The notes under the pieces were generated by a model, which did not search any database, was not told the origin of the DNA, and worked only from the letters and a program-made list of their open reading frames with translations. Positions 18,500 to 45,545 of a DNA stretch of 64,000 nucleotides are shown here, piece after piece. The DNA is from Candidatus Falkowbacteria bacterium (lineage in GTDB: Bacteria > Patescibacteriota > Patescibacteriia > UBA11705): assembly GCA_003518055.1 (NCBI GenBank), contig DOZJ01000003.1, forward strand, positions 2,046 through 66,045. The letters are read 5' to 3'. A program made the position numbers and the translations under genes. The stretch's first letter is position 1; each line of letters starts with the position of its first letter.

Positions 18500-18830
18500 T
18501 TGGTGGGGTAACAATAACTACCGAAGTTTGGCGGTCGGATGTTGGTTTTTTACAAAAATTAGACAGGGGTAACTGGAATGGCGGAAGTAAAGAGTAAAGA
18601 GCGAATAATAAAAATGGCGTAACTGTAACTACGGAATTAACTGTAACTACGGAAGTTTGGCAAGTCGGTTGGGTTTTTTACAAAAGTATGGCAGCAACAA
18701 TAACTACCCACCTACGCTCTTACTGTGTAGAAAGCTACGGCGCCTGCCTGCCGGTAGGCAGGGGCGCGGCGGAAGTTTGGCGGATGGGGAGGCAAAAGTT
18801 TGGCTATAACAATGAAAGTTTGATGATTTT
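18500..18830. repeat. Intergenic repeat cluster: copies of the ~28-nt GTAACTGTAACTACGGAAGTTTGGCGG family plus a ~130-bp segment duplicated at 45370-45500
   Basis: ggggtaacaataactaccgaagtttggcgg, gcgtaactgtaactacggaattaactgtaactacggaagtttggcaag. Also ...ggcagcaacaataactacccacctacgctcttactgtgt...gcctgcctgccggtaggcaggggcgcggcggaagtttggcgg, nearly identical to 45380-45500. Confidence 0.7.
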
Positions 18831-26600: not shown

Positions 26601-29600
26601 ATTGCCGCTTCAATCAGTATTAGCGGTACAGTTGAATCTAGCGCTCAAACCCAAGGTTTCATCGGGCCGGGCGCGACCGGGTTTGGCACGTCAGGCGTGA
26701 GCGATTTTGGAATGCATAGCGCGGCTACCATGGGCGAGAAACCAATTGGAGTTTTTCCGATGAATTCACTGGCCGGTGTAACCTCTCGCTATTTTGTTGA
26801 TTTGCCTGTGACCACGGTTATTCCGAACGGTGGAAAAATTGAATTAACATTCCCCAATGGATTTGATATTACAAATGCGGTGATTGATACCAACAGTCCG
26901 ATGAATAATGATATATCTCGCGGTTCTTCCACCATGACTTTGTCTTGCGTGGGAACTCAAGCAACGAGAACCATTACCTGTACGACTACCGGTGCTTCTG
27001 ATGCCAATGATTATTTATCTTTTGAATTAAAAACTATAATTAATAGTTCTATTCCCAAAGATTTCAACACTTCAGGTTATACGGTTGATGTTAAAACCAA
27101 GTCGGCTGATGGTTTGACTCTGTTGGAATCAATGACGACCATGCCGTTTTTCGTCACCGCGGCCGGATCCAATTCTATCACGGTCAAAGTTTATGCCGGC
27201 GGTCAGCTCGATGCCACCACCGGTACGGATGATATTGATGATGTAACCATGAATTTGTTTGTCGGTTCCCCCATGACCGGTCCCATGGATCAAACGATTA
27301 CTTTTACTAACGGCTATGCGACAACAACGATCAGTAATTTACCCGCCGGCGAATACTTTGTCTTTACCGAGCCATCAATGACAATTGGCGCCAACGAATA
27401 TGTCGGGGTGTCACCGGAGCAATTTTCACTAAATAACAACGTTACCAAGTCATTTTCGTTGAGTAAAATGGATAATTCAACGGCGGCGCCGCTGACAGTC
27501 AAGATTACCGGGGCCTTTGGCGAGACTGAAGATATTGATATTTTCGCCGGTAGTTCCAAGGGCTTTGTGGTCAAAACAATCAGTGATATCGGGACCGTAA
27601 CAAATCAGTCTTATACATTATATTTGCCTTACAACAGCGATTGGAGTATCGGTCTCGGGCCGGCAATGCCGAAAGGCGCAATCAGCGGTCAAGTCGCCAT
27701 GCCCGATTGGATGCCGCCGAAAAATAAAATGGTTCGAGTGACCGGCGTGGGCGAGACAGTCGCTTTGACCAATATGGAAACGCAGGCTGATGTTACCAGT
27801 GCTGGAGTCTCATTTACGGTGGCCTCTGCCGATTATCAAATTAACGGTTCGGTGGTTGACGGCAATGATCAAGGAATCGCTAACGCGGAGCTGTGGGCTT
27901 ACCAACCAATGGGTTTTGGCGGCAGCGGTAATAACACTCGAGCGACAACCGGCGGCAACTTCTCATTGAAGGTAGCGGAGTATGGAACGTACAAAGTAGG
28001 CGCCTTTTTACCTGGTATTCCCCAATCACCGGAATTAACATTGGAGGTAAAAGTTAACACCGGCGCCATTGATGGTAACGCCTCAGCGGATGTTTATCTA
28101 AACGGGACATTGATAACCGCTGGTAGTCCGTTTAAAATAAAATTAAGGAAAGCTGATTACACCATATCGGGTAAAGTGACGGATTCCAGCAACAATCCAA
28201 TGCAATACGCGCCGATTTGGGCCGAGGAATCCACCACGAAACAGACGGTTAACGCCATGACCGATTCCAGCGGAAATTATGTGCTTTATGTCGGTAATGG
28301 TACTTGGGTTGTCAGATCGGCGGTGCCTTTCGGTTCCAATATTTGCGGCAGTCTGACTAAAACGGTGACAATTTCCAGCGCATCCAAATCCGGTCAAAAT
28401 TTGCAACCATCATCAAGCACTTGTTACACTTTGAGCGGAACCGTGACTATTGGCGGATCGGTTGTTACCGGCGCCCCGGTGTTTATCGATGAATGGTCAG
28501 GGACGCTGGCGAGCGGTAATCCAATCGGGGTTTTTAGAGACTCGCGAACAGATTCCGCAGGACAATATTCGACACGAATTTCGAACGGCACATATCGCGT
28601 TGGGACTTGGTCAGAGGATTATGGCGAGCGGGCTATTTTAGTCACGGTTAATGGCCAGGATTCAACGGCAAATCATATCACTGTAGAGGTGGCTGATTTA
28701 AAAACATTGACCGTTAATTTTACCGGTGGCGCCAGCGACATGACTGGTTTCATGGAGGTGCGGAACGCCACAAGCACTGAACGCCGCGGTCGTCCGATCA
28801 ATGATTTATCGAATGCTGAAATTATTCAAGTTAGCGCCGGGACTTATAATGTATTTGTTCATATTGACGGTGTGGGTGACTTTAGCCAAAGCAGCGTTGA
28901 TTTAACCGCTAACGCCGTTATTACATTCAATGTGTCATCAGTGACTCGATTTGGCATTACAGGCACGGTCGAGGATGTTGATGGCAATCCGATCGAAAGC
29001 GCTTGGGTTTGGGTTCATGATCCAAATAGCAATTATAGAACAGGAGCAGCGACCAACTCGTCTGGCGCTTATACTTTGAGTGTAAAGGAAGGTTCAGGGA
29101 TGAAAATCGGTGTTGATAAACCGAATTATGTCTCCCCTGCCCCCAGAACATTAAACGTCACTGAAGCGGCTACGATAGATTTTACCGACGCTGAGAATGC
29201 CGCTTTGACCGCGACGAATTATGTGGTTTCTGGTACGGTGACGGGAACGAATTTGACTGAGGGTTTTGTGTGGGCGGAAACCGCTACGGGTGGTTGGTCA
29301 GGTAGTCCGATTGATTTGGACGGAACCTTTTCATTGCCGGTGACAAACGGAACGTGGACACTCAAAGGTATTGCTCCGCTTCACGCGCAAACGACCTATA
29401 GTGGTTCGATAACGATTAATAATGACAGTGTAACCGGTTTAAGCTTTCCTTTGACGGTTGATGTCACGAAGACAGTCAAAACGGCCATAAATTCGATTAC
29501 TCCTTCTGTCGGTGGTGTCATTCAAGACGATACGGTAGGGGCAAAAGTCGTAGTACCACCGAATGCTTTAGGCAGCGGATCGACGTCAGGAAATATGACA

Positions 29601-30647
29601 ATGCAAAAATCATATACGGCTCCGGCTACTGGCTTATACGCGCCGTTATCAGGTGAGTCAGTCAATATATCAGTTACCGATAACAATGGTCAGCAGATTA
29701 CCAATTTAAACGATGACGTGGAGTTGACTCTAGATTATTTGACTACAAGTTTACCGAGCGGAATTTCCGAAGGCGATTTGATTCCGGCTTATTGGGATAC
29801 TACAACAAATCAATGGATCCCGCTCAGCGGAGTGCAGAATTCGTCAGACAACTCATTTACAGCTCAAACCAATCACTTTACCATTTTTGGTGTGGTTTAT
29901 TCCCCGCTGTCAGTAACGACAGCATCTGGCAGCAGTCGATCCAGCCAGGAGGCGTCACAAGAGCTTGTTGATTCGATAACCGGTGATGGCTCTGGTAGTT
30001 CGACATCGATTCCGGCGACTGAAGAAACGACAGAGCCGGAAACCGCAGAACCGGAGTTAATACCCGATGAGTCAGTAACGGAAACACCTGAGACGTCCGT
30101 GGAAGCTGAAGAAGAGATGGTGAAAACATATACCCCGGATTTACCGGCAGAGCGTGATTTGGATAATGAACGAGACGCCATAAGTCGATATATCAGTTTG
30201 GAGAAAGAATTACCAACTGGTGATGACTGGAAGGTTGTCCAATTCATCAGCTACGGAAGTACGTCTGTGACTGAAGTTTTGACGACTCGGGAGCGTTCTG
30301 GTTTAGTATCTGATTATAAGGATTTGTACGGCCATTTACCGGTGACCGAGACTGATTGGAAGGATATAGATTTGATTGCTCGCGGTGAACAACCGACCCG
30401 GATTTTGACGCTTGAGGCATCAGCTATCAAGGAATTCGTAATGATTTATGGTCGATTGGTCAATTTTCAGACAGCAGCAGATGAGGATTTTATTCATATG
30501 GTGGCTTATCGCTATCGAGTGGAACAACGCGATTTGGCCAGGGAAAATACGGCTTTGGGCATATTTTCTAAGGCTTATGGTCATCTGCCCAATTCAACCC
30601 ACTTTTGGTCGGTATTGAGAGCTATATCCTATGCTAACGTGGAATAA
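23694..30647 (+). CDS. Giant (2317-aa) N-anchored surface protein with an LTD, bacterial Ig-like and carboxypeptidase-regulatory-like repeats, and the same C-terminal domain as 21033-23210
   Basis: Signal-anchor LLIAFLMVFILGTTGYLTLI. LTD LLISEVKFTGEVGGNYVELYNRSG...SFERKAIF...NGFDSDDNNWDFV. Many ~90-aa beta-rich repeats (e.g. ...NTSNVTFKRG...DINGNAF..., ...YTISGKVTDSSNNP...DSSGNYVLYV...). Acidic T/E linker. C-terminus ...FWSVLRAISYANVE. Confidence 0.6.
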   Translation: MIHMKKTNRRSRSNHNLLIAFLMVFILGTTGYLTLIKPLAVKAGTSPLLISEVKFTGEVGGNYVELYNRSGSALSTEENVGVQYKFPSGEWTNLHVAFSNESIPASGFVLFGTAGGDLAFADEAAFNTAMAANNNSINGLSLRLCAILSSCVDGNLLDVVGFGSSSTTEGTAISLTDWDPSKSFERKAIFDSTVGAMIAGGEDETAGNGFDSDDNNWDFVMQSTGNPQNLSSAVESLDNAVFEDVVPFIDHGQVFSYHDNADLYLFAAIYDDSNIATTGAKIFYRVGTSGVFTQADSTKTVGAYDLTGSAWYAFVIPQASLQSAVSGGGVVQYYLQVTDGENTATMPDYNPSTTPFNIGVTDDYAGVKSFSGVITDSQLNFVRALVLIENSGFYAVSSAENGAYSFSSLPTSYEPDGAYRVIMVAPNYSSAMVSGMNGSTTVNAQLPLSYGDFGGGDFVGPYVNYTAPNAEMFGAPVAICNLNTSPESLPAGVNFCSPIMVGFSEAMNSGTVNTTNVKLYNFTTSAYVDNLGITATAQDNEFQVFSTTPLSVNTTYALILTTDVRDQAGNALVGNRSDGSYEITFTTGGAAFTGGGGQTFGSGQFQPPFVRTVSPNSGSFNIAMNANVLVDFTTAVNVESANLARVNLVDLDSSEVVSLTRTYSNDKTKIILNPNSTLSANQDYEIRVAGSFESSVGVTLGDPQNSQNTDDYVFFRSSFTTGSTLDSTGPRVLGTLPASAQTDVAVGLGSIEIGVSESLDAATVNTSNVTFKRGSTNIAADIEYDEASKTIRLFPSSALTANASHTVAVKTDVTDINGNAFNSDNDGTNGEVDDIYTFQFTTSSTIETTAPTVTNVRCDDYQCVVTYSEAMNRVTVTDTTDWVDSVGKWETSVLNRLNYSISVDKGAGLATVDITEATFKYDGNTNSVIISNLRLYEDVVDLNNPVPLTLSVYNAAGPADGVRDIVGNVIAASISISGTVESSAQTQGFIGPGATGFGTSGVSDFGMHSAATMGEKPIGVFPMNSLAGVTSRYFVDLPVTTVIPNGGKIELTFPNGFDITNAVIDTNSPMNNDISRGSSTMTLSCVGTQATRTITCTTTGASDANDYLSFELKTIINSSIPKDFNTSGYTVDVKTKSADGLTLLESMTTMPFFVTAAGSNSITVKVYAGGQLDATTGTDDIDDVTMNLFVGSPMTGPMDQTITFTNGYATTTISNLPAGEYFVFTEPSMTIGANEYVGVSPEQFSLNNNVTKSFSLSKMDNSTAAPLTVKITGAFGETEDIDIFAGSSKGFVVKTISDIGTVTNQSYTLYLPYNSDWSIGLGPAMPKGAISGQVAMPDWMPPKNKMVRVTGVGETVALTNMETQADVTSAGVSFTVASADYQINGSVVDGNDQGIANAELWAYQPMGFGGSGNNTRATTGGNFSLKVAEYGTYKVGAFLPGIPQSPELTLEVKVNTGAIDGNASADVYLNGTLITAGSPFKIKLRKADYTISGKVTDSSNNPMQYAPIWAEESTTKQTVNAMTDSSGNYVLYVGNGTWVVRSAVPFGSNICGSLTKTVTISSASKSGQNLQPSSSTCYTLSGTVTIGGSVVTGAPVFIDEWSGTLASGNPIGVFRDSRTDSAGQYSTRISNGTYRVGTWSEDYGERAILVTVNGQDSTANHITVEVADLKTLTVNFTGGASDMTGFMEVRNATSTERRGRPINDLSNAEIIQVSAGTYNVFVHIDGVGDFSQSSVDLTANAVITFNVSSVTRFGITGTVEDVDGNPIESAWVWVHDPNSNYRTGAATNSSGAYTLSVKEGSGMKIGVDKPNYVSPAPRTLNVTEAATIDFTDAENAALTATNYVVSGTVTGTNLTEGFVWAETATGGWSGSPIDLDGTFSLPVTNGTWTLKGIAPLHAQTTYSGSITINNDSVTGLSFPLTVDVTKTVKTAINSITPSVGGVIQDDTVGAKVVVPPNALGSGSTSGNMTMQKSYTAPATGLYAPLSGESVNISVTDNNGQQITNLNDDVELTLDYLTTSLPSGISEGDLIPAYWDTTTNQWIPLSGVQNSSDNSFTAQTNHFTIFGVVYSPLSVTTASGSSRSSQEASQELVDSITGDGSGSSTSIPATEETTEPETAEPELIPDESVTETPETSVEAEEEMVKTYTPDLPAERDLDNERDAISRYISLEKELPTGDDWKVVQFISYGSTSVTEVLTTRERSGLVSDYKDLYGHLPVTETDWKDIDLIARGEQPTRILTLEASAIKEFVMIYGRLVNFQTAADEDFIHMVAYRYRVEQRDLARENTALGIFSKAYGHLPNSTHFWSVLRAISYANVE

Positions 30648-31429: not shown

Positions 31430-31530
31430 ACCCCGCTCAAGTTGGATCTGGCGGGGTAACTCTAACTACAAAAGTTTGGCGGGTTGGGTTAGTTTTTACA
31501 AAAGTTTGGCGAGGTAAGGTTGTAAATTGG
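31430..31530. repeat. Copies of the GTAACTNTAACTAC(A/G)GAAGTTTGGCGG repeat family
   Basis: ggcggggtaactctaactacaaaagtttggcgggttgggttagtttttacaaaagtttggcgagg. Confidence 0.6.
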
Positions 31531-32826: not shown

Positions 32827-34362
32827 CTATTGTTGACTAAGGTTTAATAGAGCGTGTTTTAACCGGTTAAGGCATTTGGTTTTGCCCAGAACTCCGGCGA
32901 TTTCGAATGGTCCGGGTGATTTTTCCCGGCCGGACAGGGCAACCCGAAGCGGCCAAAGCACATCACCATTTTGAAGGTTGTTGTGATCAATCATGTTTCT
33001 GATTTCTTTTTCGAGTTGGTCGGCGGTAAAGTGATCTTCCGGTGTTTTGATGAGTATTTCAAGGAGATATTGCAGGGCTTGGATGGTGGTGTCTTTGTCC
33101 GATTTTTTAAAAATTAACATTGTCGGATCAAGGTCCAGTTTGGCTGGGAAGACAAATTTGATCGCGTCGGAAATTTCGTTCAGGCGGCGGATGCGATTTT
33201 TTTCCAGCGAACAATAACGTTTAATGTCATTAAAGGTAATTTTTTCTTTGGTTAGCCGGTTGGTGTATTTGTTGTCGCTTTCATCGGTAACTAATTCAGC
33301 TGAGATTAAATAAGGTATACATTCGGTTGTGAATTGATCGTCGGATAAGCCTCGGAGATATACGCCATTGATCCAATCCAATTTTTCCAGATCAAAAACC
33401 GCGCCTTTTTTGTGGACATTATCAAGAGAAAATTGTTTGATCATCTCGTCGCGCGTATAAACTTCTTGTTCAGTCCCCGCGTTCCAGCCGAGCAAAGCAA
33501 TGAAATTTATTAAAGCGTCTTTCAAAAAGCCGGCTTGGATAAAGTCTTTGACGGAGACGTCGCCGTCGCGCTTACTCATTTTCTTTTTATTATTGTTGAG
33601 AATTTGGGGTAGGTGCGCGAAAACCGGAGCCTGCCAACCGAAAGATTCATATAACAAAACATGTTTTGGCGTGCTGGCAATCCATTCATCGCCGCGCATG
33701 ATGTGCGTGATTTTCATCAAGTGGTCGTCAATGATGTTGGCAAAGTGATAGGTCGGGAAACCGTCTGTTTTTACTAAGACAAAATCATCCAGATCTTTGG
33801 TGTTGACTTTGATGGCGCCGCGGATCGTGTCTTCAAATACAACCTCTTTTTCCTCAGGCATTTTGAATCGGATGACAAATGGGGCTTTTTGTTTTAACTT
33901 TTGTGTCACTTCGTCTTTTGATAAATGGCGGCACAAACCATCGTATTTGGGCGGCAGATTATCTTTTTTTTGCTGTTCGCGGAGATCGTCCAAGCGTTCT
34001 TTGGAACAGAAACAATAGTAGGCTTTATTTTTGGCCAGTAAAGTTTTTATGTGTTTTTGGTAAATGTCCAGACGTTCAGATTGAACATAGGGTCCATAGT
34101 CCCCTTTTTGATTGATTTTACCGTTGTCCAGATATGGTCCTTCATCATAGTCTAAACCAGCCCACTCCAAGGTCTGAAGCAGGTCTTCGAGGGCGCCCGG
34201 CACAAACCGCGTGCGGTCGGTGTCTTCGATGCGAACAATAAAGGTGCCGTCTTGATGACGAGCGAAAAGATAGTTGTATAAGATAGTGCGCAGATTGCCG
34301 ATGTGGACATAGCCGGTCGGGCTAGGGGCAATACGGACGCGGATGTTGGTGTTGGTGGGCAT
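32827..34362 (-). CDS. gltX: Glutamate--tRNA ligase
   Basis: RIAPSPTGYVHIGNLRT (HIGH motif) and KMSKRDG (KMSKS motif). 511 aa. Confidence 0.85.
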   Translation of the reverse strand: MPTNTNIRVRIAPSPTGYVHIGNLRTILYNYLFARHQDGTFIVRIEDTDRTRFVPGALEDLLQTLEWAGLDYDEGPYLDNGKINQKGDYGPYVQSERLDIYQKHIKTLLAKNKAYYCFCSKERLDDLREQQKKDNLPPKYDGLCRHLSKDEVTQKLKQKAPFVIRFKMPEEKEVVFEDTIRGAIKVNTKDLDDFVLVKTDGFPTYHFANIIDDHLMKITHIMRGDEWIASTPKHVLLYESFGWQAPVFAHLPQILNNNKKKMSKRDGDVSVKDFIQAGFLKDALINFIALLGWNAGTEQEVYTRDEMIKQFSLDNVHKKGAVFDLEKLDWINGVYLRGLSDDQFTTECIPYLISAELVTDESDNKYTNRLTKEKITFNDIKRYCSLEKNRIRRLNEISDAIKFVFPAKLDLDPTMLIFKKSDKDTTIQALQYLLEILIKTPEDHFTADQLEKEIRNMIDHNNLQNGDVLWPLRVALSGREKSPGPFEIAGVLGKTKCLNRLKHALLNLSQQ

Positions 34363-34370
34363 AAACTACG

Positions 34371-34600
34371 AAAGTTAGATTGTCAGATGTGAATTAGGGT
34401 GTAACTATAACTACGGAAGTTTGGCGGGGTAACTGTAACGGCGGAAGTTTGGCGGGGTAACTGTAACTACGGAAGTTAGGCGGGTGTAACTGTAACTACG
34501 GAAGTAACTATAACTACGGAAGTTAGGCGGGGGTAACTGTAACTACGGAAGTAACTGTAACTACGGAAGTTAGGCGGGGTAAGTTAAGGTTTATTTAAGT
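34371..34600. repeat. Tandem array of seven or more directly abutting ~28-nt units, (G)GGTAACTGTAACTACGGAAGTT(T/A)GGCGG
   Basis: ggtgtaactataactacggaagtttggcgg / ggtaactgtaacggcggaagtttggcgg / ggtaactgtaactacggaagttaggcgg / gtgtaactgtaactacggaagtaactataactacggaagttaggcgg / gggtaactgtaactacggaagtaactgtaactacggaagttaggcgg. There are no unique spacers. Confidence 0.8.
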
Positions 34601-34976
34601 TTGGATTTATTATACGATAAATGTTAACATTTTTTTGATTAAAGTGAACTAATAAACCAAGTTTTATTCCCGACAATTTTAAATATTCTTTGACTTGATA
34701 AAAATGCTTTTGGGAAATTAGGGATGAGGCTTTAATTTCTATAATAATACAATCTTCAATCAGAAAGTCAATCTTACGATAAGTAATCTCACGACCGTAT
34801 AATTGAAGTGGAATTTTGGATTCTTTTACGTAATTTATTGTTTTTTGTTTGAGTAGTGATTCAAGTAGTTGACAATATGATGCTTCCCTGAGACCGTAAC
34901 CGAGTTGTTTGTATATTTGATAAAATAGTCCGTTCAAGACATATGAAAGATCCTCAAAATAAAAATGAGTCTGCAT
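34584..34976 (-). CDS. GxxExxY-family protein
   Basis: ...YKQLGYGLREASYCQLLE... (G-x-x-E-x-x-Y) and ...LKLSGIKLGLLVHFN... match the GxxExxY family signature. Confidence 0.6.
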   Translation of the reverse strand: MQTHFYFEDLSYVLNGLFYQIYKQLGYGLREASYCQLLESLLKQKTINYVKESKIPLQLYGREITYRKIDFLIEDCIIIEIKASSLISQKHFYQVKEYLKLSGIKLGLLVHFNQKNVNIYRIINPNLNKP

Positions 34977-35105
34977 ATGGTTTATTATACCATATGGTGA
35001 TAAGTATGGTAAGATAACGGCTGATAAAATAATTATTGTTTGTGTGCGTTAACAGTTAAAAAATACTTATTTTAGCTAAACTTCCGTAGTTATCGTTATA
35101 CCCTA

Positions 35106-35134
35106 TTGACAAATTATAATAAGTATGATATAAT
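35106..35134 (+). promoter_or_regulatory. Consensus sigma70 promoter
   Basis: TTGACA (35106-35111), 17 nt, TATAAT (35129-35134). Confidence 0.5.
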
Positions 35135-35295
35135 GGCTAATCAAGCTGAGAAATTCATTGGCACATTGGCATTCATATATAAGACATTTGGATCTTTTTG
35201 TTGAGGGGTAACTGTAACTACGGAAGTATTACTACTAACGTTTTTACATTCATATAGTATATCGCTTGTCGTGATATTATATATAAAGACACCTC

Positions 35296-35324
35296 TTGAC
35301 AAAATGATTTAGATGTGATATAAT
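35296..35324 (+). promoter_or_regulatory. Consensus sigma70 promoter feeding a ~355-nt leader and the high-GC ORF
   Basis: TTGACA (35296-35301), aaatgatttagatgtga (17 nt), TATAAT (35319-35324). Confidence 0.55.
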
Positions 35325-35682
35325 GTTAAGCATGAACTTTGATATAACCATAACTACCAGACTACGCTGAAGCTACGTCTGGCACAGCGAAAGTTTAGCA
35401 GCAGCAAGAAGGCAGCAACTATTATTGAATTTGAGTTTGTGTCAACCTGAACTTGTTTCAGGTTCTACAAAATCAGATTCAATGATGGTTGTGAGATGTC
35501 TCCAACCTGTCCGGTGTAAATGGTCAAGACCAAAGAACTTCTTAAGCTTCACTCTGGTCCCCACATATCAAAACCGGGACCTATGAGCCGATTAGCGGCT
35601 GACAAAAGTGAAGTCGAAGATCAGCGGTCAAGACCAACCAAATCGTTTTTGGGGCACAGCCCCGCTTCATGGAGGAATCCAG

Positions 35683-36768
35683 ATGACCGAGCAGAGCACC
35701 CGCATCTCCACCCTCGTCGACTACGTCAACAACCACGGCACGTCGATCCGGCCCAACGTCATGGTCGAGTCCGATCTCGTCACCGGGCGCCCCTTCCCCG
35801 CGCGTTTCGCGCGGGTGCTGGTGGCGACCCAGCAGCTGTTCAACAACATCGACGTGAAGATGCTGCAGGAGCAGATTTTCAGGCTCAACGGCGAGCAGCG
35901 CGACGCCGGCAAGCCGATGCTCGACGGCAGCCACATCACGCTCAGCGAGGCGCTCGCGAACGCCGCGGCGGTCATCAAGTACCGCGACGCCATCGACCCG
36001 CTCCTGATCAACCGCGACGCGCGACTCACCGGCTTCCAGGTGTCCGAGCTGTCGCTCGACCCGACGGAGCTGGAGAAGCACCTCGCGGCAGGCGCCGGCA
36101 CGATCGACATGACCCGTGTCGCGGCCTGGTCCAAGAAGCAGAGCCTCTACGAGGCCGCGCTCGCGGCCCGCGCGGCGATCTTCGACGACCTGCGCAGCCG
36201 CGACGTCACCCCCGAGGAGCCCAACGGCTGGAGCCTGGCCCAGTGCCAGACGTCCGACTTCTGGGCGGCCTACGAGGAGGCGATCAAGGCCTTCGCGGTC
36301 GAGGTCGGCTTCGAGTGGGACGGCACGCCGACCACGCCGACTCCGCCGGTCTACCCCGTCACGGTCGTCCGCGTGTTCCACCGGGACGACATGTCGACCG
36401 GCTTCCGGTACATCCCCATGGTGGCGGACGGTCGGCACAAGGCGGCCGTGCAGATCCTCTGGGAGCAGCACGTCGAGTGGTCCCAGGAGCGCCAGAAGCC
36501 GCCGACGTTCTACCGCCGGTTCGTGTCGGAGGTCTGCGTCCCCCTGAACCTGCTGCAGGACATGCTCCGCAGCGAGGGCGTCAAGGACGACCGGCCGACG
36601 GTCGAGGCGAAGGTCTCGAGCCTCGCCGCGTCCCTGTCCGCCATTAGGGACAACCGGAACGCCGAGTACGAGGGCGGCCGGCGCAACCGCGACGAGGACA
36701 ACGACCGCCGCGGCAGCCGGGGCAAGCGCGGCAACACCCGCCAGAACCACCCCTACTCCCGCGGCTGA
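35683..36768 (+). CDS. Hypothetical 361-aa protein encoded at ~66% GC (GC3 >90%); probable foreign (horizontally acquired) gene
   Basis: GGAGG (35671-35675) then ATG at 35683. Codons are almost all G/C-ending (gtc gag tcc gat ctc gtc acc ggg cgc ccc...). C-terminal R/G/D/N-rich tail ...GGRRNRDEDNDRRGSRGKRGNTRQNHPYSRG. Overlapping ORFs on other frames and the other strand (35520-36647, 35581-36840 etc.) are high-GC artefacts. Confidence 0.6.
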   Translation: MTEQSTRISTLVDYVNNHGTSIRPNVMVESDLVTGRPFPARFARVLVATQQLFNNIDVKMLQEQIFRLNGEQRDAGKPMLDGSHITLSEALANAAAVIKYRDAIDPLLINRDARLTGFQVSELSLDPTELEKHLAAGAGTIDMTRVAAWSKKQSLYEAALAARAAIFDDLRSRDVTPEEPNGWSLAQCQTSDFWAAYEEAIKAFAVEVGFEWDGTPTTPTPPVYPVTVVRVFHRDDMSTGFRYIPMVADGRHKAAVQILWEQHVEWSQERQKPPTFYRRFVSEVCVPLNLLQDMLRSEGVKDDRPTVEAKVSSLAASLSAIRDNRNAEYEGGRRNRDEDNDRRGSRGKRGNTRQNHPYSRG

Positions 36769-36841
36769 CCGCAACCAACCCACCTCCCGATCTTTCCGTC
36801 TCGAATCTGAGGCATCACAAGCGAAAAACTCTACGAACATA

Positions 36842-36874
36842 AAGACCTAGCATTGCCTGGGTCTTTTTCGTTTT
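36842..36874 (+). terminator. Rho-independent terminator after the high-GC ORF
   Basis: aagacc-tagcattgcctg-ggtctt followed by tttcgtttt. Confidence 0.55.
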
Positions 36875-37051
36875 AAAAGTGTGGGCTGTTTAGTTATCAA
36901 TTCACATCTGTCAGTAGACAATGATATGTTTGCTATTTTTGTAAAGCCGTTAGTTTCTAGTTGTCAGAAATAGTAGGTTGCTTCGTCGTTACTACGTACT
37001 CCTCGCAACATAAAAAGGATCAAAAAAATAAAAAAAGATGTTGGTTGATTC

Positions 37052-37080
37052 TTGACTTAACAATCTGTTTGCAGTATGAT
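37052..37080 (+). promoter_or_regulatory. Sigma70-type promoter
   Basis: TTGACT (37052-37057), 17 nt, TATGAT (37075-37080). Confidence 0.5.
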
Positions 37081-37155
37081 AAATTTAATACAGTTAATAA
37101 AAGGAGGCATCTATCCCCTGCTCGAGGAGGCGCAGGGAGCCAAGGAGGTGACCTA

Positions 37156-37743
37156 ATGTCAAATAAAGACACGGCTGGTGGTTTTTTCCGGGTCACCGAT
37201 GACTTTTGGGCCAATTTGCTCCTTAGGGAGATGAAGTTTCACGCCGGAGACAACGGTTTTGATGTGGCGGAAATATTCATCGACAGAGATCGCCGGCTGG
37301 TGCTAATGGTGCCGAGATTGCCGTCAGATATCACCAAGTTGAATTTGATGGAGGTTGAGCGACTGATCGCCGAGCCTGATGATTTTGAGGAAATGGATGA
37401 CATGCCGTTTTCTCTTTCCGTTATCCGGTCTGCGGGATTGGTGTATTTCATCAAGTTTAATGTGGGTGAAATAAATGTCTCCGTATTGATGCCGGTTCCA
37501 TATTCTTTGTACAGTCAGGATTTTGACGGCTATGTCGGTTTCGTCAAGGTAAATAATGTAACATGGACTGACGCCAAAAACCTGGACCTAGATTCTTCGA
37601 AGTTTTCGGTTGTTTATCGAGATTATGTTTCGGGCTTCATGGAAATTTGCCTCGCGGTTGGCCGCGATGAACAAAATAAACCGATTCCGGTACTGCCATC
37701 GGTCACGATGAGCACTGACGGACGGAAATTTATAAGAGTATAA
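37156..37743 (+). CDS. Hypothetical 195-aa protein
   Basis: caaggaggtgacctaATG. The upstream 55 nt carry three SD-like motifs and a ccctgc/gcaggg hairpin. No recognisable domain. Confidence 0.5.
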   Translation: MSNKDTAGGFFRVTDDFWANLLLREMKFHAGDNGFDVAEIFIDRDRRLVLMVPRLPSDITKLNLMEVERLIAEPDDFEEMDDMPFSLSVIRSAGLVYFIKFNVGEINVSVLMPVPYSLYSQDFDGYVGFVKVNNVTWTDAKNLDLDSSKFSVVYRDYVSGFMEICLAVGRDEQNKPIPVLPSVTMSTDGRKFIRV

Positions 37744-37892
37744 AAACAGACTTTAACGAAGTCTGCTTTTGTTTATATACTGTAACTGCGAAAGTATGGC
37801 CGTGGGGGCTACTTATACAAAATGAGTATAGTTAAAGTAAAAAGTGGAGGGAAAAGTTTTTACAAAAGTTTGGCGGGTGTAGCTGTAATAAA

Positions 37893-38348
37893 TTATTCAA
37901 TGTATTTCAAAATTATCTCTAGCGACCCATGACGCTGGGTATGGATGTATTTTTTTAGTTCGTCTTTGGTGACCCATTTGAAATCATCGGCTTCGAGTTC
38001 GTCGCTTTGATCAAGATGAAAGTCATTGTCAGTGCCGGAAAAGGTTAAAATAAAAATTGTTTGCTCTTGGCCAATGTAGCCTTCCGCCTCATAGTATTTA
38101 AGCTTCAAAATTTTTTTTGGCCAGTCATAACGATATTGCTCGGGCAGTTTTTCTTTGACAGTTAAAAATTGTGGCTCAACGCCCAATTCTTCCGAGGCTT
38201 CACGCACCACTGCTTGTTCCGGCGTTTCTCCTTGGTCCACTCCCCCTTGAGGAAATTGCCAATGATTAAAACGCGGGTTGTGTTGGATTAAAAATTTGTC
38301 ATTTTGGGTAATAACGGCGATAACATTGGGGCGATATTTGTTTGGCAT
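37893..38348 (-). CDS. NUDIX hydrolase
   Basis: NUDIX box GGVDQGETPEQAVVREASEELGV. Confidence 0.8.
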   Translation of the reverse strand: MPNKYRPNVIAVITQNDKFLIQHNPRFNHWQFPQGGVDQGETPEQAVVREASEELGVEPQFLTVKEKLPEQYRYDWPKKILKLKYYEAEGYIGQEQTIFILTFSGTDNDFHLDQSDELEADDFKWVTKDELKKYIHTQRHGSLEIILKYIE

Positions 38349-38449
38349 AGAGTTTTTACAAAGTGGTTATAGTTTTTTACAAAAGTATAACAGCAACTAC
38401 GAAAGCTTGACGGTTAGTGGCAGGGTTTTACAAAAGGTTGGCGGGGCGG

Positions 38450-39199
38450 TTAGGAAGGTTTGCGGTCTTTGTGGGCCAATGAATGTTTCAGGCAGATTAG
38501 GGGAAAAACAATTACAGCTTTGAAAATTCTGTTGATTCGTTTGGGTTGTTTATATAGACGAAAAAGCCACTCTAATCCGAGTCGGCGCATGATTTCGGGG
38601 GCTCTGGTTTGGCGGCCGGTGATAAAGTCAAAGCTGCCGCCGACCCCCAGACCGAGCTTGGCGGTGATGTTGAGGTCGCGAAGCTGATGGAGCAATGATT
38701 CTTGAATTGGCGCGCCATGGGTGGTAAAAATAATATCAGGTTTAGTGTTATTGATATGATCCAATAAATCGTTGGTAATGTCAGCGCTTTTGTACCCATG
38801 AAGTTTGAGATTCGGATAATCGTTTAGCACGGATTTTTTTATTTCGATCAGTGAAGACAAAGAGTCGGGGTGATTGATGATAAATATGGTTAGCCTCCGG
38901 TCGTGTGCCAGCTGCAAAAGATATTTGGTCAAATCCGAACCGGTGTGACGATGCTGGATTTGTTGGCCGGAAAGAAAGGCGCCGATTTTTAACCCAAAGC
39001 CGTCAGGAATGTTCATGTCGCCTTGGTTAAGAACATCTTGGAACTTTTTATTTTGGCGCGCGTGAAGACATATTTCCGGATTGGGCGTAAATAAAAGTTT
39101 TAATTTTGTTTGACGCAAAAAACCGTCAATCTCTTGATAGAGATCGGATTCCGAGCAATCATGAATAACGGTATCGAGGATGGTAATTTTTTGAGTCAT
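38450..39199 (-). CDS. WecB/TagA/CpsF-family glycosyltransferase
   Basis: 249 aa. ...DGFGLKIGAFLSGQ...TTHGAPIQE...GLGVGGSFDFITGRQTRAPEIMRRLGLEWLFRL matches the WecG/TagA family. Confidence 0.7.
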   Translation of the reverse strand: MTQKITILDTVIHDCSESDLYQEIDGFLRQTKLKLLFTPNPEICLHARQNKKFQDVLNQGDMNIPDGFGLKIGAFLSGQQIQHRHTGSDLTKYLLQLAHDRRLTIFIINHPDSLSSLIEIKKSVLNDYPNLKLHGYKSADITNDLLDHINNTKPDIIFTTHGAPIQESLLHQLRDLNITAKLGLGVGGSFDFITGRQTRAPEIMRRLGLEWLFRLYKQPKRINRIFKAVIVFPLICLKHSLAHKDRKPS

Positions 39200-44385: not shown

Positions 44386-45186
44386 TTGAACGACATTATG
44401 ATTGTATTTGCGGCGGTGGTCCCCCACCCGCCATTAATCATTCCCAGCTTGGGAAAAGATAATACAAAAAAATTGACTAAAACTCAAGAAGCTTTTGAAA
44501 TTTTAAAAAAAGAATTTGAGGCGGCTAAACCTGATACGGTTGTAATATTTTCACCGCATGGAGATATATATCCGGATGCGTTTACCATCAATACTTTGCC
44601 TGAATATGAGTTGAATTTTGAAGATTTCGGCGACTTTGAAACTCGGATGAATTTTGTCGGTGACCTAGGATTGATCAATCGATTCCGGGAACAAGTGGAA
44701 ACTACCCTACCGGTGGTGTTAAAATCAGAGTCGGTGCTTGATTATGGCGTGGGCATTCCATTGTATTCTCTCGCTCAGGCATATAAAAATTTCAAAATAA
44801 TGCCGATAAATTCTTCCTTACTTGACCTCGAACAGCATTTGAATTTTGGCGAGGAATTGAAAGAAGCGATATTTTCAAGTGAAAAAAAGGTGGCGATAAT
44901 CGCCTCAGCTGATTTGAGTCATCGGCTGTCAAAAAATGCTCCAGCCGGGTTTTCACCGAAAGCCAAGGATTTTGATAAAAAAATTATTCAGTATTTGAAA
45001 CAAAAAAAAGTAGATCAGATGATCCAATTCGATTCCCAGCTGCTCAAGGAGGCCGAAGAGTGCGGGTTGAGACCGATTATGATGTTGATGGGAGTGATTA
45101 GGAATATGAATTATGATTTTCAGGTTTTGAGTTATGAGTCGCCTTTTGGGGTGGGATATTTGGTGGGAGAGTGTTTGTTGAAGTAA
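44386..45186 (+). CDS. LigB-superfamily protein (class III extradiol dioxygenase subunit B-like / MEMO1-like)
   Basis: N-terminal ...IVFAAVVPHPPLIIP... and ...VVIFSPHGD... histidine motifs typical of PF02900-like folds. 266 aa. Confidence 0.45.
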   Translation: MNDIMIVFAAVVPHPPLIIPSLGKDNTKKLTKTQEAFEILKKEFEAAKPDTVVIFSPHGDIYPDAFTINTLPEYELNFEDFGDFETRMNFVGDLGLINRFREQVETTLPVVLKSESVLDYGVGIPLYSLAQAYKNFKIMPINSSLLDLEQHLNFGEELKEAIFSSEKKVAIIASADLSHRLSKNAPAGFSPKAKDFDKKIIQYLKQKKVDQMIQFDSQLLKEAEECGLRPIMMLMGVIRNMNYDFQVLSYESPFGVGYLVGECLLK

Positions 45187-45545
45187 CTGTAACTACGAAA
45201 GTTTGGCAGCAAGTAGATAGTTTTACGAAAATTAGGCGGGCGTAACTGTAACTACGGAATTAACTGTAACTACCCGCCTACGCTCTTACTTCCACCTACG
45301 CATAACGCTTATGCCTTCGCTAAAGCTATGGCATACAGGTCGGTGGACAGGGTGTAGAGCTACGGCGGGCGCGGCGGAAGTTTGGCAAGTCGGTTGGGTT
45401 TTTTACAAAAGTATGGCAGCAACAATAACTACCCACCTACGCTCTTACTGTGTGAGCTACGGCGCCTGCCTGCCGGTAGGCAGGGGCGCAGCGGAGGTTT
45501 GGCGGGGATTGGTTGCGTAGGGTTAATTCAGGGAAAAGAAAGGCG
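45187..45545. repeat. Intergenic repeat cluster: GTAACTGTAACTAC family units plus a ~130-bp near-identical copy of 18640-18790
   Basis: aactgtaactacgaaagtttggcagc..., gcgtaactgtaactacggaattaactgtaactacccgcctacgctcttac..., ggcggaagtttggcaagtcggttgggttttttacaaaagtatggcagcaacaataactacccacctacgctcttactgtgtgagctacggcgcctgcctgccggtaggcaggggcgcagcggaggtttggcgg. Confidence 0.7.

What the first reader, a model, noticed from the sequence alone, without database searches (positions are those of the whole stretch)
35100..36880. A single ~1.1-kb gene at ~66% GC embedded in a ~40% GC genome
From ~35655 to ~36770 the base composition jumps from the window norm (~40% GC) to about two-thirds GC; this was counted by eye over several 60-nt stretches, not computed. 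Nearly every codon of the 361-aa ORF 35683-36768 ends in G or C (gtc gag tcc gat ctc gtc acc ggg cgc ccc ...), which is the codon dialect of Actinobacteria or their phages. All out-of-frame and antisense ORFs are open as well. Yet the gene sits in a native-looking expression context: two textbook TTGACA-17-TATAAT promoters (35106-35134, 35296-35324), a GGAGG RBS 7 nt before the ATG, and a hairpin plus T-run terminator (36842-36874). Its flanks (35330-35682 and 36770-36960) are only ~45% GC. The protein has no motif I recognise: no Walker, HExxH, nuclease or RT signatures. It ends in an R/G/D/N-rich low-complexity tail (...GGRRNRDEDNDRRGSRGKRGNTRQNHPYSRG) suggestive of nucleic-acid binding. The locus lies in the most repeat-laden and accessory-looking part of the window, beside a tandem repeat array, a GxxExxY gene, an unknown 195-aa gene and a NUDIX gene. 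Possible explanations: (1) recent horizontal acquisition of a host- or phage-derived effector, anti-phage or host-interaction gene from a high-GC donor, plausible if this organism is an epibiont of Actinobacteria; (2) the catalytic or sensor part of an undescribed accessory system whose partner is 37156-37743; (3) an assembly chimera or contaminant.
Basis: seen in the sequence. Interest (0 to 1): 0.88.

Follow-up and report, generated by a model that had tools for sequence, protein, structure and literature searches.

The report
Inherited GC-rich gene in Falkowbacteria
One gene in this low-GC groundwater bacterium (Candidatus Falkowbacteria) is about 69% GC, and the same odd gene sits at the same spot in every related lineage examined, so it is an inherited gene whose extreme composition is actively kept up, which is not what standard theory predicts.

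Summary
ORF 35683-36768 (+) is 69.0% GC with GC3 0.972, in a 42% GC window (z = 10.3).

It is not a chimera. Three separate assemblies are 100% identical across both junctions.

It is not a recent transfer. Ten lineages of the Falkowbacteria-like clade (gltX 57-75% identical) all carry a 62-69% GC gene (GC3 0.80-0.99) in the same slot and orientation. Each has a near-perfect TTGACA-N17-TGnTATAAT promoter. Nine have a GGAGG site, nine an intrinsic terminator, and all eight loci that reach far enough have a homologous ~200-aa gene downstream. An outgroup lacks both genes.

The protein evolves very fast (41% identity where gltX is 75%). Its similarity groups mirror the gltX/M23 tree, which indicates vertical descent. 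Synonymous sites are saturated yet still G/C.

The GC plateau starts and stops with the ORF, and the transcribed leader stays AT-rich. This points to a translation- or mRNA-linked selective force. It argues against transfer, hypermutation or biased gene conversion.

Function is unknown. No family, structure or defence-system match was found. Nine of ten proteins end in an R/K/G-rich tail. GenBank annotates the antisense ORF instead of this gene.

The parts
35106..35134 (+). Upstream promoter P1, TTGACA-17-TGATATAAT (12/12 with extended -10)
   Evidence: A counterpart exists in L004. P1 was seen only in the window+L004 pair.
35296..35324 (+). Proximal promoter P2, TTGACAAAAT...TGATATAATG
   Evidence: The same perfect promoter is present in 9 of 10 lineages and is 11/12 in L015. 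Only 6 perfect matches occur in the whole 64-kb window.
35331..35682 (+). About 350-nt 5' leader, not GC-rich in its 5' part (0.37-0.47). It holds a long stem-loop at 35415-35492 and a GGTCCC/GGGACC hairpin at 35556-35581.
   Evidence: RNAalifold on the window and L004 leaders: 68 pairs, 18 with changes on both sides. Rfam sees only a generic hairpin at 35415-35492. The evidence rests on two sequences only.
35671..35675 (+). GGAGG ribosome-binding site, 7 nt before the ATG
   Evidence: A GGAGG-type site is present in 9 of 10 lineages.
35683..36768 (+). GC-rich protein-coding gene, 361 aa (P0001). GC 0.690, GC3 0.972. Mostly helical, with an R/G/D/N-rich basic C-terminal tail.
   Evidence: Orthologue at 41% identity in L004. 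From composition alone 5.5 in-frame stops are expected; 0 are observed. The first ~60 nt are less GC-rich.
36769..36840 (+). Short C-rich 3' UTR including CACCTCC (36781-36787), which resembles the anti-Shine-Dalgarno sequence
   Evidence: A similar CCTCC motif occurs after the stop codon in L014 and L015 only.
36841..36876 (+). Intrinsic terminator: 10-bp stem followed by TTTTTCGTTTTAA
   Evidence: A hairpin-plus-T-run terminator lies 60-110 nt after the stop in 9 of 10 lineages, 7 of them with the TTTTCNTTTTAAAA-type tail.
37156..37743 (+). Conserved 195-aa partner gene of unknown function, GC 0.456, with its own promoter-like site at 37052-37080
   Evidence: Homologous (20-52% identity) and adjacent in all 8 loci that include it. 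Otherwise found only in the same two genomes at sequence-search level. No Pfam, PADLOC, NCBIfam or PDB match.
35581..36840 (-). Spurious antisense ORF (419 aa) that GenBank annotates as HCC23235.1 / DF272_03585
   Evidence: This frame is expected to carry only 0.1-5.4 stops per gene from composition alone, and it is interrupted in L016, L017 and L018.
34584..34976 (-). PD-(D/E)XK (PDDEXK_3, 'GxxExxY') gene inserted in the AT-rich spacer between gltX and the promoters. It is not part of the conserved module.
   Evidence: Pfam E = 6e-26. It has no counterpart in L004.
32827..34362 (-). gltX (glutamate-tRNA ligase), the divergently transcribed syntenic anchor
   Evidence: It is adjacent in all 10 lineages.

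Best explanation
SHOWN: 35683-36768 (+) is a genuine protein-coding gene. It has been inherited vertically within the Falkowbacteria-like clade of Patescibacteria, together with the ~200-aa gene downstream of it. It forms its own transcription unit: a consensus extended -10 sigma-70 promoter (two in this genome), a structured leader, a GGAGG site and an intrinsic terminator.

SHOWN: its protein sequence diverges 3-6 times faster than its neighbours. Its nucleotide composition stays at 62-69% GC (GC3 0.80-0.99) in genomes of about 35-48% GC, even though synonymous sites have turned over completely.

INFERRED: the plateau begins and ends with the ORF, its length scales with ORF length, and the transcribed leader stays AT-rich. 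The force holding the composition is therefore most likely selection acting on the translated mRNA. It would be an extreme natural case of the translation-dependent selection for genic G+C that has been shown experimentally in E. coli and Caulobacter. Very high expression would intensify it. A weakly constrained protein would let it also reshape first and second codon positions. The result is an mRNA folded about twice as stably per nucleotide as its neighbours.

GUESSED: the product is an abundant nucleic-acid-binding protein, or possibly a secreted one, with a basic tail.
For: Coding status: GC1/2/3 periodicity of 0.62-0.67 / 0.38-0.46 / 0.80-0.99 in all 10 genes. There are 0 in-frame stops against 78 expected over the 10 genes. 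Window and L004 align at 41% identity with conserved blocks.

Vertical descent: same slot, orientation and signals in 10 of 10 lineages. The outgroup lacks the island and the partner gene. All detectable similarity links (window-L004; L004-L011; L011-L013; L015-L016-L017; L014-L018; L014-L017) agree with the gltX and M23 trees.

Not a leftover from transfer: third-position identity at conserved fourfold codons is 0.43 against 0.41 random. Only one relative, and none on a high-GC contig, was found in 1.84e9 representative proteins; every contig fetched for either sequence type shares the low-GC flanks. No relatives were found in phage or viral collections. Lys is 6.9% and K/(K+R) is about 0.48.

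ORF-bound force: mean GC is 0.30-0.33 upstream, 0.54-0.56 in the first 60 nt of the ORF, 0.64-0.72 up to the stop, and about 0.37 within 90 nt after it. Islands of 951-1710 nt track ORF length.

Not ordinary codon adaptation: ClpB (also behind a perfect promoter) and GreA have GC3 0.47-0.49 with AAA>AAG and GAA>GAG.

No ongoing hypermutation: 0-1 SNP across strain-level contigs.

mRNA folding: -0.43 to -0.52 kcal/mol/nt against -0.19 to -0.28 in neighbours. Versus synonymous-codon shuffles, mean z is -3.5 for the 10 genes and -0.85 for 9 neighbour genes.

Precedent: Kelkar, Phillips & Ochman 2015, PMC4478552. There the effect needs a ribosome-binding site and is independent of tRNA-optimal codons.
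Against: High expression is inferred only from consensus signals. No transcript or protein data were available.

No ribosomal-protein or EF-Tu genes lie in the window. Whether truly abundant genes of these genomes are also GC-enriched is therefore untested. If the force were general, it is unclear why only this gene responds; it is the only island in 194 kb.

The window's own gene shows no significant excess folding (z = -1.1).

Homology between the three protein subgroups and L012 is not demonstrable by sequence, so replacement within the slot cannot be fully excluded.

Protein function is unknown. Both AlphaFold models were unusable (pLDDT 35 and 39).
Confidence: 0.6

Rival explanations
1. 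A locus-specific GC-biased mutational process or GC-biased gene conversion hotspot drives both the high GC and the fast protein divergence. This would resemble gBGC hotspots in vertebrates.
For: GC is raised at all three codon positions and dN is 3-6 times that of neighbours. A single mutational or conversion bias would explain both. One Rifle scaffold carries a diverged, still GC-rich variant of the gene's 5' end.
Against: The plateau edges coincide with the start and stop codons in 10 lineages with ORFs of 316-569 codons. The transcribed leader, up to 350 nt, remains AT-rich (L013: 0.17-0.33). There are 0-1 SNPs among strain-level contigs, so the rate is not visibly elevated. GC dips in the first 60 nt of the ORF, as expected from selection on translation initiation.
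Confidence: 0.13
2. The composition insulates this one mRNA. It would stay intact and translatable when AU-rich mRNAs, or the tRNAs that read A/U-ending codons, are destroyed. Possible triggers are RNase toxins, anticodon nucleases, or dormancy.
For: Third-position A is 0.008 and T is 0.019. The longest A/T run is 3-6 nt in all ten genes. The effect is ORF-bound. The mRNA is very stably folded. From general knowledge, Patescibacteria carry many toxin-antitoxin modules.
Against: No linked toxin or nuclease is conserved at the locus; the PD-(D/E)XK gene is specific to the window genome. GC1 and GC2 are also raised, which a purely third-position mechanism does not need. There is no PADLOC match. 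The idea is speculative.
Confidence: 0.15
3. Horizontal acquisition from a high-GC donor (Actinobacteria, their phages or a host), either recent or repeated into the same slot.
For: The codon pattern superficially matches high-GC organisms. The protein subgroups are mutually unrecognisable.
Against: 10 of 10 lineages share the slot, orientation, promoter, RBS and terminator. Similarity groups follow the host phylogeny. Synonymous saturation shows no amelioration. Only the L004 orthologue, and no high-GC copy, appears in 1.84e9 representative proteins or in the phage and viral sets. All contigs share the low-GC flanks. Lys content is typical of a low-GC proteome.
Confidence: 0.04
4. The gene is codon-matched to a high-GC host cell, because the DNA or mRNA is delivered to and expressed in that host, as with T-DNA.
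For: Composition is ORF-bound. The basic C-terminal tail resembles type IV secretion signals (own knowledge). Divergence is fast, as in effectors.
Against: There are no border repeats, relaxase or transfer genes at the locus. The host of Falkowbacteria is unknown. The 5' GC dip and GGAGG site indicate expression in the bacterium itself.
Confidence: 0.02
5. Assembly chimera or contaminant; or the real gene is the antisense ORF as annotated in GenBank.
For: Contigs often break inside the island. GenBank annotates the minus-strand ORF.
Against: Three assemblies made with two assemblers are 100% identical across both junctions. The same architecture appears in 10 lineages from different sites. The antisense frame is open trivially and is broken in L016, L017 and L018. 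The sense frame has 0 stops against 78 expected. All expression signals are on the + strand.
Confidence: 0.01

Closest known systems
Compositionally atypical genes taken as horizontally acquired islands, with amelioration expected (Lawrence & Ochman model; own knowledge)
   Same: A sharp single-gene GC and codon-usage outlier beside a tRNA-synthetase gene, in a repeat-rich spacer.
   Different: It is syntenic in all ten related lineages and congruent with the host tree. There is no donor homologue. No amelioration has occurred despite saturated synonymous sites. No mobility genes are conserved at the locus.
Translation-dependent selection for higher genic G+C in expressed genes (Raghavan et al. 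2012; Kelkar, Phillips & Ochman 2015, PMC4478552)
   Same: A G+C preference at synonymous sites that is confined to the translated region and independent of the genome's tRNA-adapted codon preferences.
   Different: The published effect is a modest genome-wide tendency measured with reporter genes. Here a single natural gene sits 25-30 percentage points above its genome, with GC3 up to 0.99, and first and second codon positions are shifted as well.
GC-biased gene conversion hotspots causing extreme GC and aberrant protein divergence (for example the sand-rat Pdx1 region; own knowledge)
   Same: Very high GC is coupled to unusually fast protein divergence in one gene.
   Different: Those regions are not bounded by ORFs and depend on meiotic recombination. 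Here the boundaries follow the start and stop codons, and no recombination signal was seen.
mRNAs that lack a toxin's cleavage motif and so escape mRNA interferases (for example ACA-less transcripts and MazF; own knowledge)
   Same: Sequence composition of a coding region is shaped independently of the protein.
   Different: No toxin is linked here. The bias is a blanket G/C preference. It is not avoidance of one specific motif.

Membership tests
Recently acquired genomic island (HGT) | Patchy distribution among close relatives, with empty sites in sister lineages | tested here: not met
   Present in 10 of 10 clade members at the same slot. Absent only in the outgroup, where gltX is 51% identical.
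Recently acquired genomic island (HGT) | Homologues in donor-like (high-GC) taxa or mobile elements | tested here: not met
   Exhaustive phmmer over 1.84e9 representatives found only the Falkowbacteria orthologue. No matches in phage or viral sets.
Recently acquired genomic island (HGT) | Composition decaying towards that of the host (amelioration) as time passes | tested here: not met
   Synonymous sites are saturated (0.43 against 0.41 random), yet GC3 is 0.97 and 0.85. GC3 is 0.80-0.99 across both major clades.
Recently acquired genomic island (HGT) | Gene tree incongruent with the host tree | tested here: not met
   All detectable similarity links agree with the gltX and M23 NJ trees.
Targeted hypermutation locus (DGR-like) | Reverse transcriptase and template/variable repeat pair nearby; within-population variability | tested here: not met
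   No such repeats or RT in 34.3-38 kb or among the window's genes. Strain-level contigs are 99.98-100% identical over the island.
Structured non-coding RNA | No codon periodicity; match to an RNA family or covarying structure across the element | tested here: not met
   Three-base GC periodicity is strong and the ORF is maintained. Rfam gives only sub-threshold hairpin hits in the leader.
Ordinary translational codon bias of a highly expressed gene | Same preferred codons as other well-expressed genes of the genome | tested here: inconclusive
   ClpB and GreA prefer AAA, GAA and A/T-ending codons, with GC3 0.47-0.49. No ribosomal-protein or EF-Tu genes lie in the window, so the proper reference set is missing.
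Translation-linked selection for genic G+C (Raghavan/Kelkar-Ochman) | Effect confined to the translated region and independent of tRNA-optimal codons | tested here: met
   The GC plateau is bounded by start and stop codons while the leader stays AT-rich. G/C endings are preferred in every codon family.
Translation-linked selection for genic G+C (Raghavan/Kelkar-Ochman) | Fitness depends on genic G+C only when the gene is translated | not testable with these tools
   This needs expression of native and AT-recoded variants, with and without an RBS.
Helix-hairpin-helix DNA-binding proteins (Pfam HHH_5 / HHH_3) | Score above the Pfam gathering threshold | tested here: not met
   Only the L014 protein matches, at E = 0.07 and 14 bits against a cut-off of 27. 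The window protein has no match.
Known anti-phage defence systems (PADLOC) | HMM match of either gene of the pair | tested here: not met
   0 families for 7 GC-rich proteins and the window's 195-aa partner.

The most novel reading that the evidence does not exclude
A whole clade of Patescibacteria holds one fast-evolving, strongly promoted gene at GC3 0.8-0.99 by selection on the translated mRNA itself. The gene's composition would then be a functional trait. For example, it could make this the one message that stays stable and translatable when AU-rich mRNAs or their tRNAs are destroyed. Alternatively it could act as a compositional tag recognised by the gene's own basic-tailed product. This would be the clearest natural demonstration that selection, and not mutation or transfer, can set base composition gene by gene.
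Probability: 0.3. Interest if true: 0.9.

Novelty: categorically new. Interest (0 to 1): 0.82.

Why it matters
Three consequences follow.

First, compositional outliers are routinely read as horizontal transfer, and amelioration is used as a clock. Here is a single-gene GC island that is demonstrably ancient, vertically inherited and not ameliorating, so both assumptions fail for it.

Second, it offers a natural and extreme test case for a long-debated question: is bacterial base composition set by mutation, by gene conversion or by selection? The signal here is ORF-bounded and replicated in ten lineages, which makes the question experimentally approachable by recoding, half-life measurements and population SNP spectra.

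Third, it exposes a blind spot. Gene callers and GenBank annotate the wrong frame or strand, and assemblies break inside the island. An apparently core, probably highly expressed gene pair of Falkowbacteria is therefore almost absent from protein databases.

Tried and rejected
Searches for the 361-aa protein that found nothing:
- Pfam, PHROGs, PADLOC, NCBIfam.
- PDB profile searches with four alignments.
- Phage tblastn.
- IMG/VR scans with two alignments.

Structure: AlphaFold2 on the single sequence and on the two-sequence alignment gave pLDDT 35 and 39. No fold search was run because the models are meaningless.

Wider sequence scans: genome contigs and metagenome-contig scans with the two-sequence alignment returned only the L004 type again.

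Profile-profile comparison: hhalign between protein subgroups was significant only for window+L004 against L011+L013 (E = 2e-4).

RNA and repeats:
- Rfam on 33-39 kb gave only sub-threshold miRNA-like hairpins.
- tRNA scan of the window found none.
- The 15-nt inverted repeat 34381-34395 / 36899-36913 that brackets the unit is at chance level by my estimate (about 0.3 expected).

Overlapping coding: the antisense and +2 frames as a reason for the high GC were rejected. Their openness follows trivially from GC3, and they are broken in lower-GC3 lineages.

Strain variants: looked for in order to obtain a mutation spectrum, but contigs are identical.

Literature: two searches for a prior description found nothing relevant.
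Full report
OBSERVATION

The ORF 35683-36768 (+) is 361 aa. Its GC is 0.690 and its GC1/GC2/GC3 values are 0.646/0.450/0.972. The rest of the 64-kb window is 0.421 GC. Sliding 1086-nt windows outside the locus give mean 0.421, sd 0.026 and maximum 0.498, which puts the ORF at z = 10.3. The 29 other ORFs of 200 codons or more have GC3 0.451 +/- 0.037.

- Two promoters matching the consensus 12/12, each with a TG extension, at 35106-35134 and 35296-35324.
- GGAGG at 35671-35675, 7 nt before the ATG.
- A terminator stem at 36841-36866 followed by a T-run.

NOT AN ARTEFACT

The exact protein is encoded on three separately assembled contigs: ENA MEGAHIT of SRR2177951, and Logan assemblies of SRR5855240 and SRR5855242. 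These are 100% identical to window 34842-38425, 34918-37793 and 35354-37517. Each spans both compositional junctions.

WHAT ORGANISM

The neighbouring proteins are recorded as Candidatus Falkowbacteria (TPA record, locus tags DF272_, contig of 353,838 bp). The window encodes ordinary Patescibacteria housekeeping genes: PBP2, GreA, several aminoacyl-tRNA synthetases, Alr, FtsQ, ClpB, PriA, Def, Fmt and QueA.

RELATIVES AND SYNTENY

A word-indexed search of 5.8 billion proteins found only the protein itself. An exhaustive phmmer search of 1.84 billion representatives found one relative, P0002, at 41-42% identity. P0002 lies in Ca. Falkowbacteria CG10_big_fil_rev_8_21_14_0_10_39_11, in the same gene order: M23 peptidase, gltX, the gene, a 197-aa gene, NUDIX, WecG, ClpB. 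That orthologue is 65.4% GC with GC3 0.85, in a 40% GC genome.

I then used gltX as an anchor and fetched eight more distant loci. gltX identity is 57-75% among the ten lineages (60-75% to the window). Every locus has a 62-69% GC gene in the same slot, on the strand divergent from gltX, with GC3 of 0.80-0.99. These lineages include MAGs labelled Kuenenbacteria and Parcubacteria.

Across the ten loci:
- All have a near-perfect TTGACA-N17-TGnTATAAT promoter: nine are perfect and L015 matches 11/12.
- Nine have a GGAGG-type ribosome-binding site.
- Nine have a hairpin-plus-T-run terminator 60-110 nt after the stop, seven of them with the TTTTCNTTTTAAAA-type tail.
- All eight loci that extend far enough have a homologous ~200-aa gene downstream, at 20-52% identity.

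An outgroup with gltX 51% identical and a 28.5% GC genome has neither the island nor the partner gene. Across about 194 kb of clade DNA there is exactly one such island per locus.

VERTICAL DESCENT WITH FAST DIVERGENCE

Between the window and L004, the flanking proteins are 66-86% identical, the 195-aa partner is 52% identical, and the GC-rich protein is 39-41% identical. The dN values are:
- GC-rich gene: 0.60
- 195-aa partner: 0.39
- NUDIX: 0.21
- gltX: 0.17
- M23 peptidase: 0.14
- ClpB: 0.09

Among the ten proteins only the nearest relatives are recognisable to one another. The detectable links are:
- window-L004
- L004-L011, E = 7e-4
- L011-L013, E = 1.5e-4
- L015-L016, E = 1e-16
- L015-L017, E = 3e-6
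- L014-L018, E = 2e-7
- L014-L017, E = 0.025

Every one of these links agrees with the NJ trees of gltX and M23, and none crosses the two major clades. This is the pattern expected for one ancestral gene that diverges quickly. Independent captures would not give it.

Nine of the ten proteins end in an R/K/G-rich tail. L014 instead has a weak N-terminal helix-hairpin-helix match, below the Pfam threshold, followed by a Lys/Ala/Pro-rich stretch.

IT IS CODING, AND ON THE + STRAND

From position-specific base composition alone, the sense frames of the ten genes should contain 78 stop codons in total. They contain none.

The antisense frame and the +2 frame owe their openness to having their first codon position on the G/C-only third position. 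The antisense frame is expected to carry only 0.1-5.4 stops per gene, and it is interrupted in L016, L017 and L018.

GenBank nevertheless annotates the antisense 419-aa ORF as HCC23235.1, and the true protein is absent from NCBI. Gene callers also mis-framed the gene in L011, L013 and L014.

Nine of ten assemblies of the L013-type strain end at variable positions inside or at the edge of the island. I interpret these breaks as GC-related coverage dropouts; that is an inference. Mis-framing, assembly breaks and fast divergence together explain why the family is nearly invisible in protein databases.

WHY THE GC IS NOT A LEFTOVER

At conserved fourfold-degenerate codons, the window and L004 share the third base in 43% of cases. 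The expectation from composition alone is 41%. The synonymous sites have therefore turned over completely, yet they remain G or C. NG86 dS is only 0.85 for this gene, while neighbouring genes saturate. This is consistent with synonymous sites being confined to two states.

G/C endings are preferred in every codon family: AAG 272 to AAA 12, GAG 284 to GAA 42, CAG 168 to CAA 2, and TTA 0. The amino-acid composition shifts only moderately. Ala rises from 6.2% to 11.7% and Ile falls from 8.0% to 3.7%, but Lys stays at 6.9%. From general knowledge, that does not look like an actinobacterial proteome.

No copy exists on any high-GC contig. No relative appears in the phage or viral sets.

WHAT KIND OF FORCE

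A meta-profile of the ten loci gives these mean GC values:
- 300 to 90 nt upstream of the start codon: 0.28-0.37
- Last 60 nt before the start codon: 0.44-0.48
- First 60 nt of the ORF: 0.54-0.56
- Rest of the ORF, up to the stop codon: 0.60-0.72
- From 90 nt after the stop: about 0.37

Island length tracks ORF length, from 951 to 1710 nt. The transcribed leader, 65-350 nt long, stays AT-rich; in L013 it is 0.17-0.33 GC. These features argue against a transcription-coupled bias, a locus-bound mutational bias or a gene-conversion tract. They point to the translated mRNA as the target.

The dip at the 5' end of the ORF is the usual signature of selection for accessible initiation sites. It indicates that the gene is expressed in the bacterium itself.

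Strain-level contigs are 99.98-100% identical across the island, so there is no sign of ongoing hypermutation.

ClpB and GreA serve as proxies for well-expressed genes, and ClpB also sits behind a perfect promoter. Both use genome-typical A/T-ending codons. The bias is therefore not the genome's ordinary codon adaptation. This test is incomplete, however, because the window has no ribosomal-protein genes.

GC1 and GC2 are also raised, to about 0.63 and 0.42 against about 0.50 and 0.30 in neighbours. A purely wobble-position or tRNA explanation is therefore insufficient.

The mRNAs fold at -0.43 to -0.52 kcal/mol/nt, against -0.19 to -0.28 for neighbouring genes. They are also more stable than their own synonymous-codon shuffles. 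Mean z is -3.5 for the ten genes (range -0.8 to -7.1; the window gene is -1.1). Nine neighbour genes give a mean z of -0.85.

An experimentally documented force of the right kind exists. In E. coli and Caulobacter, selection for higher genic G+C acts only when the gene is translated, and it is independent of tRNA-optimal codons (Kelkar, Phillips & Ochman 2015, PMC4478552, citing Raghavan et al. 2012).

My best reading is that this gene is an extreme natural case of such selection. Very high expression would amplify it, and a weakly constrained protein would leave it free to act at all three codon positions. Why only this gene responds remains unexplained.

FUNCTION

Function is unknown. The anatomy is that of a monocistronic unit:
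- Strong promoter(s).
- A structured leader. The window and L004 share 68 predicted pairs, 18 of them with compensatory changes.
- A consensus ribosome-binding site.
- A strong terminator.
- A conserved partner gene with its own promoter-like site.

This anatomy, together with the basic tail, suggests an abundant nucleic-acid-binding protein or possibly a secreted one. That is a guess.

VERDICT

The favoured explanation, recent transfer from a high-GC donor, is not supported, and the chimera explanation is excluded. What is there is stranger: a clade-wide, vertically inherited, fast-evolving gene whose extreme, ORF-bounded G+C content is itself the conserved character.

Noticed in passing
window 34395-34597 (tandem array); further copies at 18508-18656, 31456-31475, 35080-35099 (-), 35208-35227, 45183-45261; degenerate copies at 37779-37800 and 37850-37896: A 20-28-nt intergenic repeat family (core GTAACTGTAACTACGGAAGT, often followed by TTAGGCGGGG). 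There are 15 copies within 3 mismatches against 0 expected. Exact-match search found it in none of the other lineages' loci, so it looks like a genome-specific REP-like element.
   Followed up: partly
window 34584-34976 (-); L017 6544-6927: The AT-rich spacer between gltX and the GC-rich gene's promoter holds a PDDEXK_3 ('GxxExxY') gene in the window genome and a 23S_rRNA_IVP-family gene in L017. Other lineages have neither. The spacer seems to be a landing site for small, possibly selfish genes.
   Followed up: partly
window 35581-36840 (-): GenBank (HCC23235.1, DF272_03585) annotates the antisense ORF instead of the real gene. Gene callers likewise chose wrong frames in L011, L013 and L014 (called frames have GC1 of 0.89-0.98).
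   Followed up: yes
L020-L028 (L013-type strain); L001-L003, L005-L007: Nine of ten assemblies of one strain end at variable positions inside or at the edge of the GC island. In other samples the island sits on 2-3.6-kb contigs. The likely cause is coverage dropout at high GC in low-GC genomes, which would fragment MAGs at this locus.
   Followed up: partly
window 37893-38348 (-) and 38450-39199 (-); L012-L017: NUDIX and WecG are separate genes in the window and L004. In six other lineages they form a single fused WecG-NUDIX protein of 388-435 aa.
   Followed up: no
window 36781-36787; L014 and L015 3' UTRs: A CACCTCC / CCTCC motif, resembling the anti-Shine-Dalgarno sequence, lies 10-40 nt after the stop codon in three of the ten loci. 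It could pair with the gene's own GGAGG site, or it may only reflect C-richness.
   Followed up: no
window 35105-35336 compared with L004 9526-9711: The region containing both promoters, including the ~160 nt between them, is 73-79% identical between the two genomes. This is unusually conserved for intergenic DNA here and might hold a small RNA or an operator.
   Followed up: no
L018 1-1900: In Parcubacteria GW2011_GWC2_38_7 the GC-rich sequence continues about 700 nt past the stop of the 357-aa ORF into a second high-GC3 ORF (194-889, -). This is either a frameshifted longer gene or two GC-rich genes.
   Followed up: no
L024 1-534: A Rifle scaffold joins the normal L013-type sequence to a diverged, still GC-rich version of the gene's 5' end (identical up to L013 position 7335, then many mismatches). 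It is either a co-existing variant or a scaffold chimera.
   Followed up: partly
window 50985-53078 (+); 23694-30647 (+): A 697-aa protein with ten Pfam INT_rpt repeats (E = 4e-133), and a 2317-aa giant protein whose orthologues in related loci carry CarboxypepD_reg and Big_5 domains.
   Followed up: no
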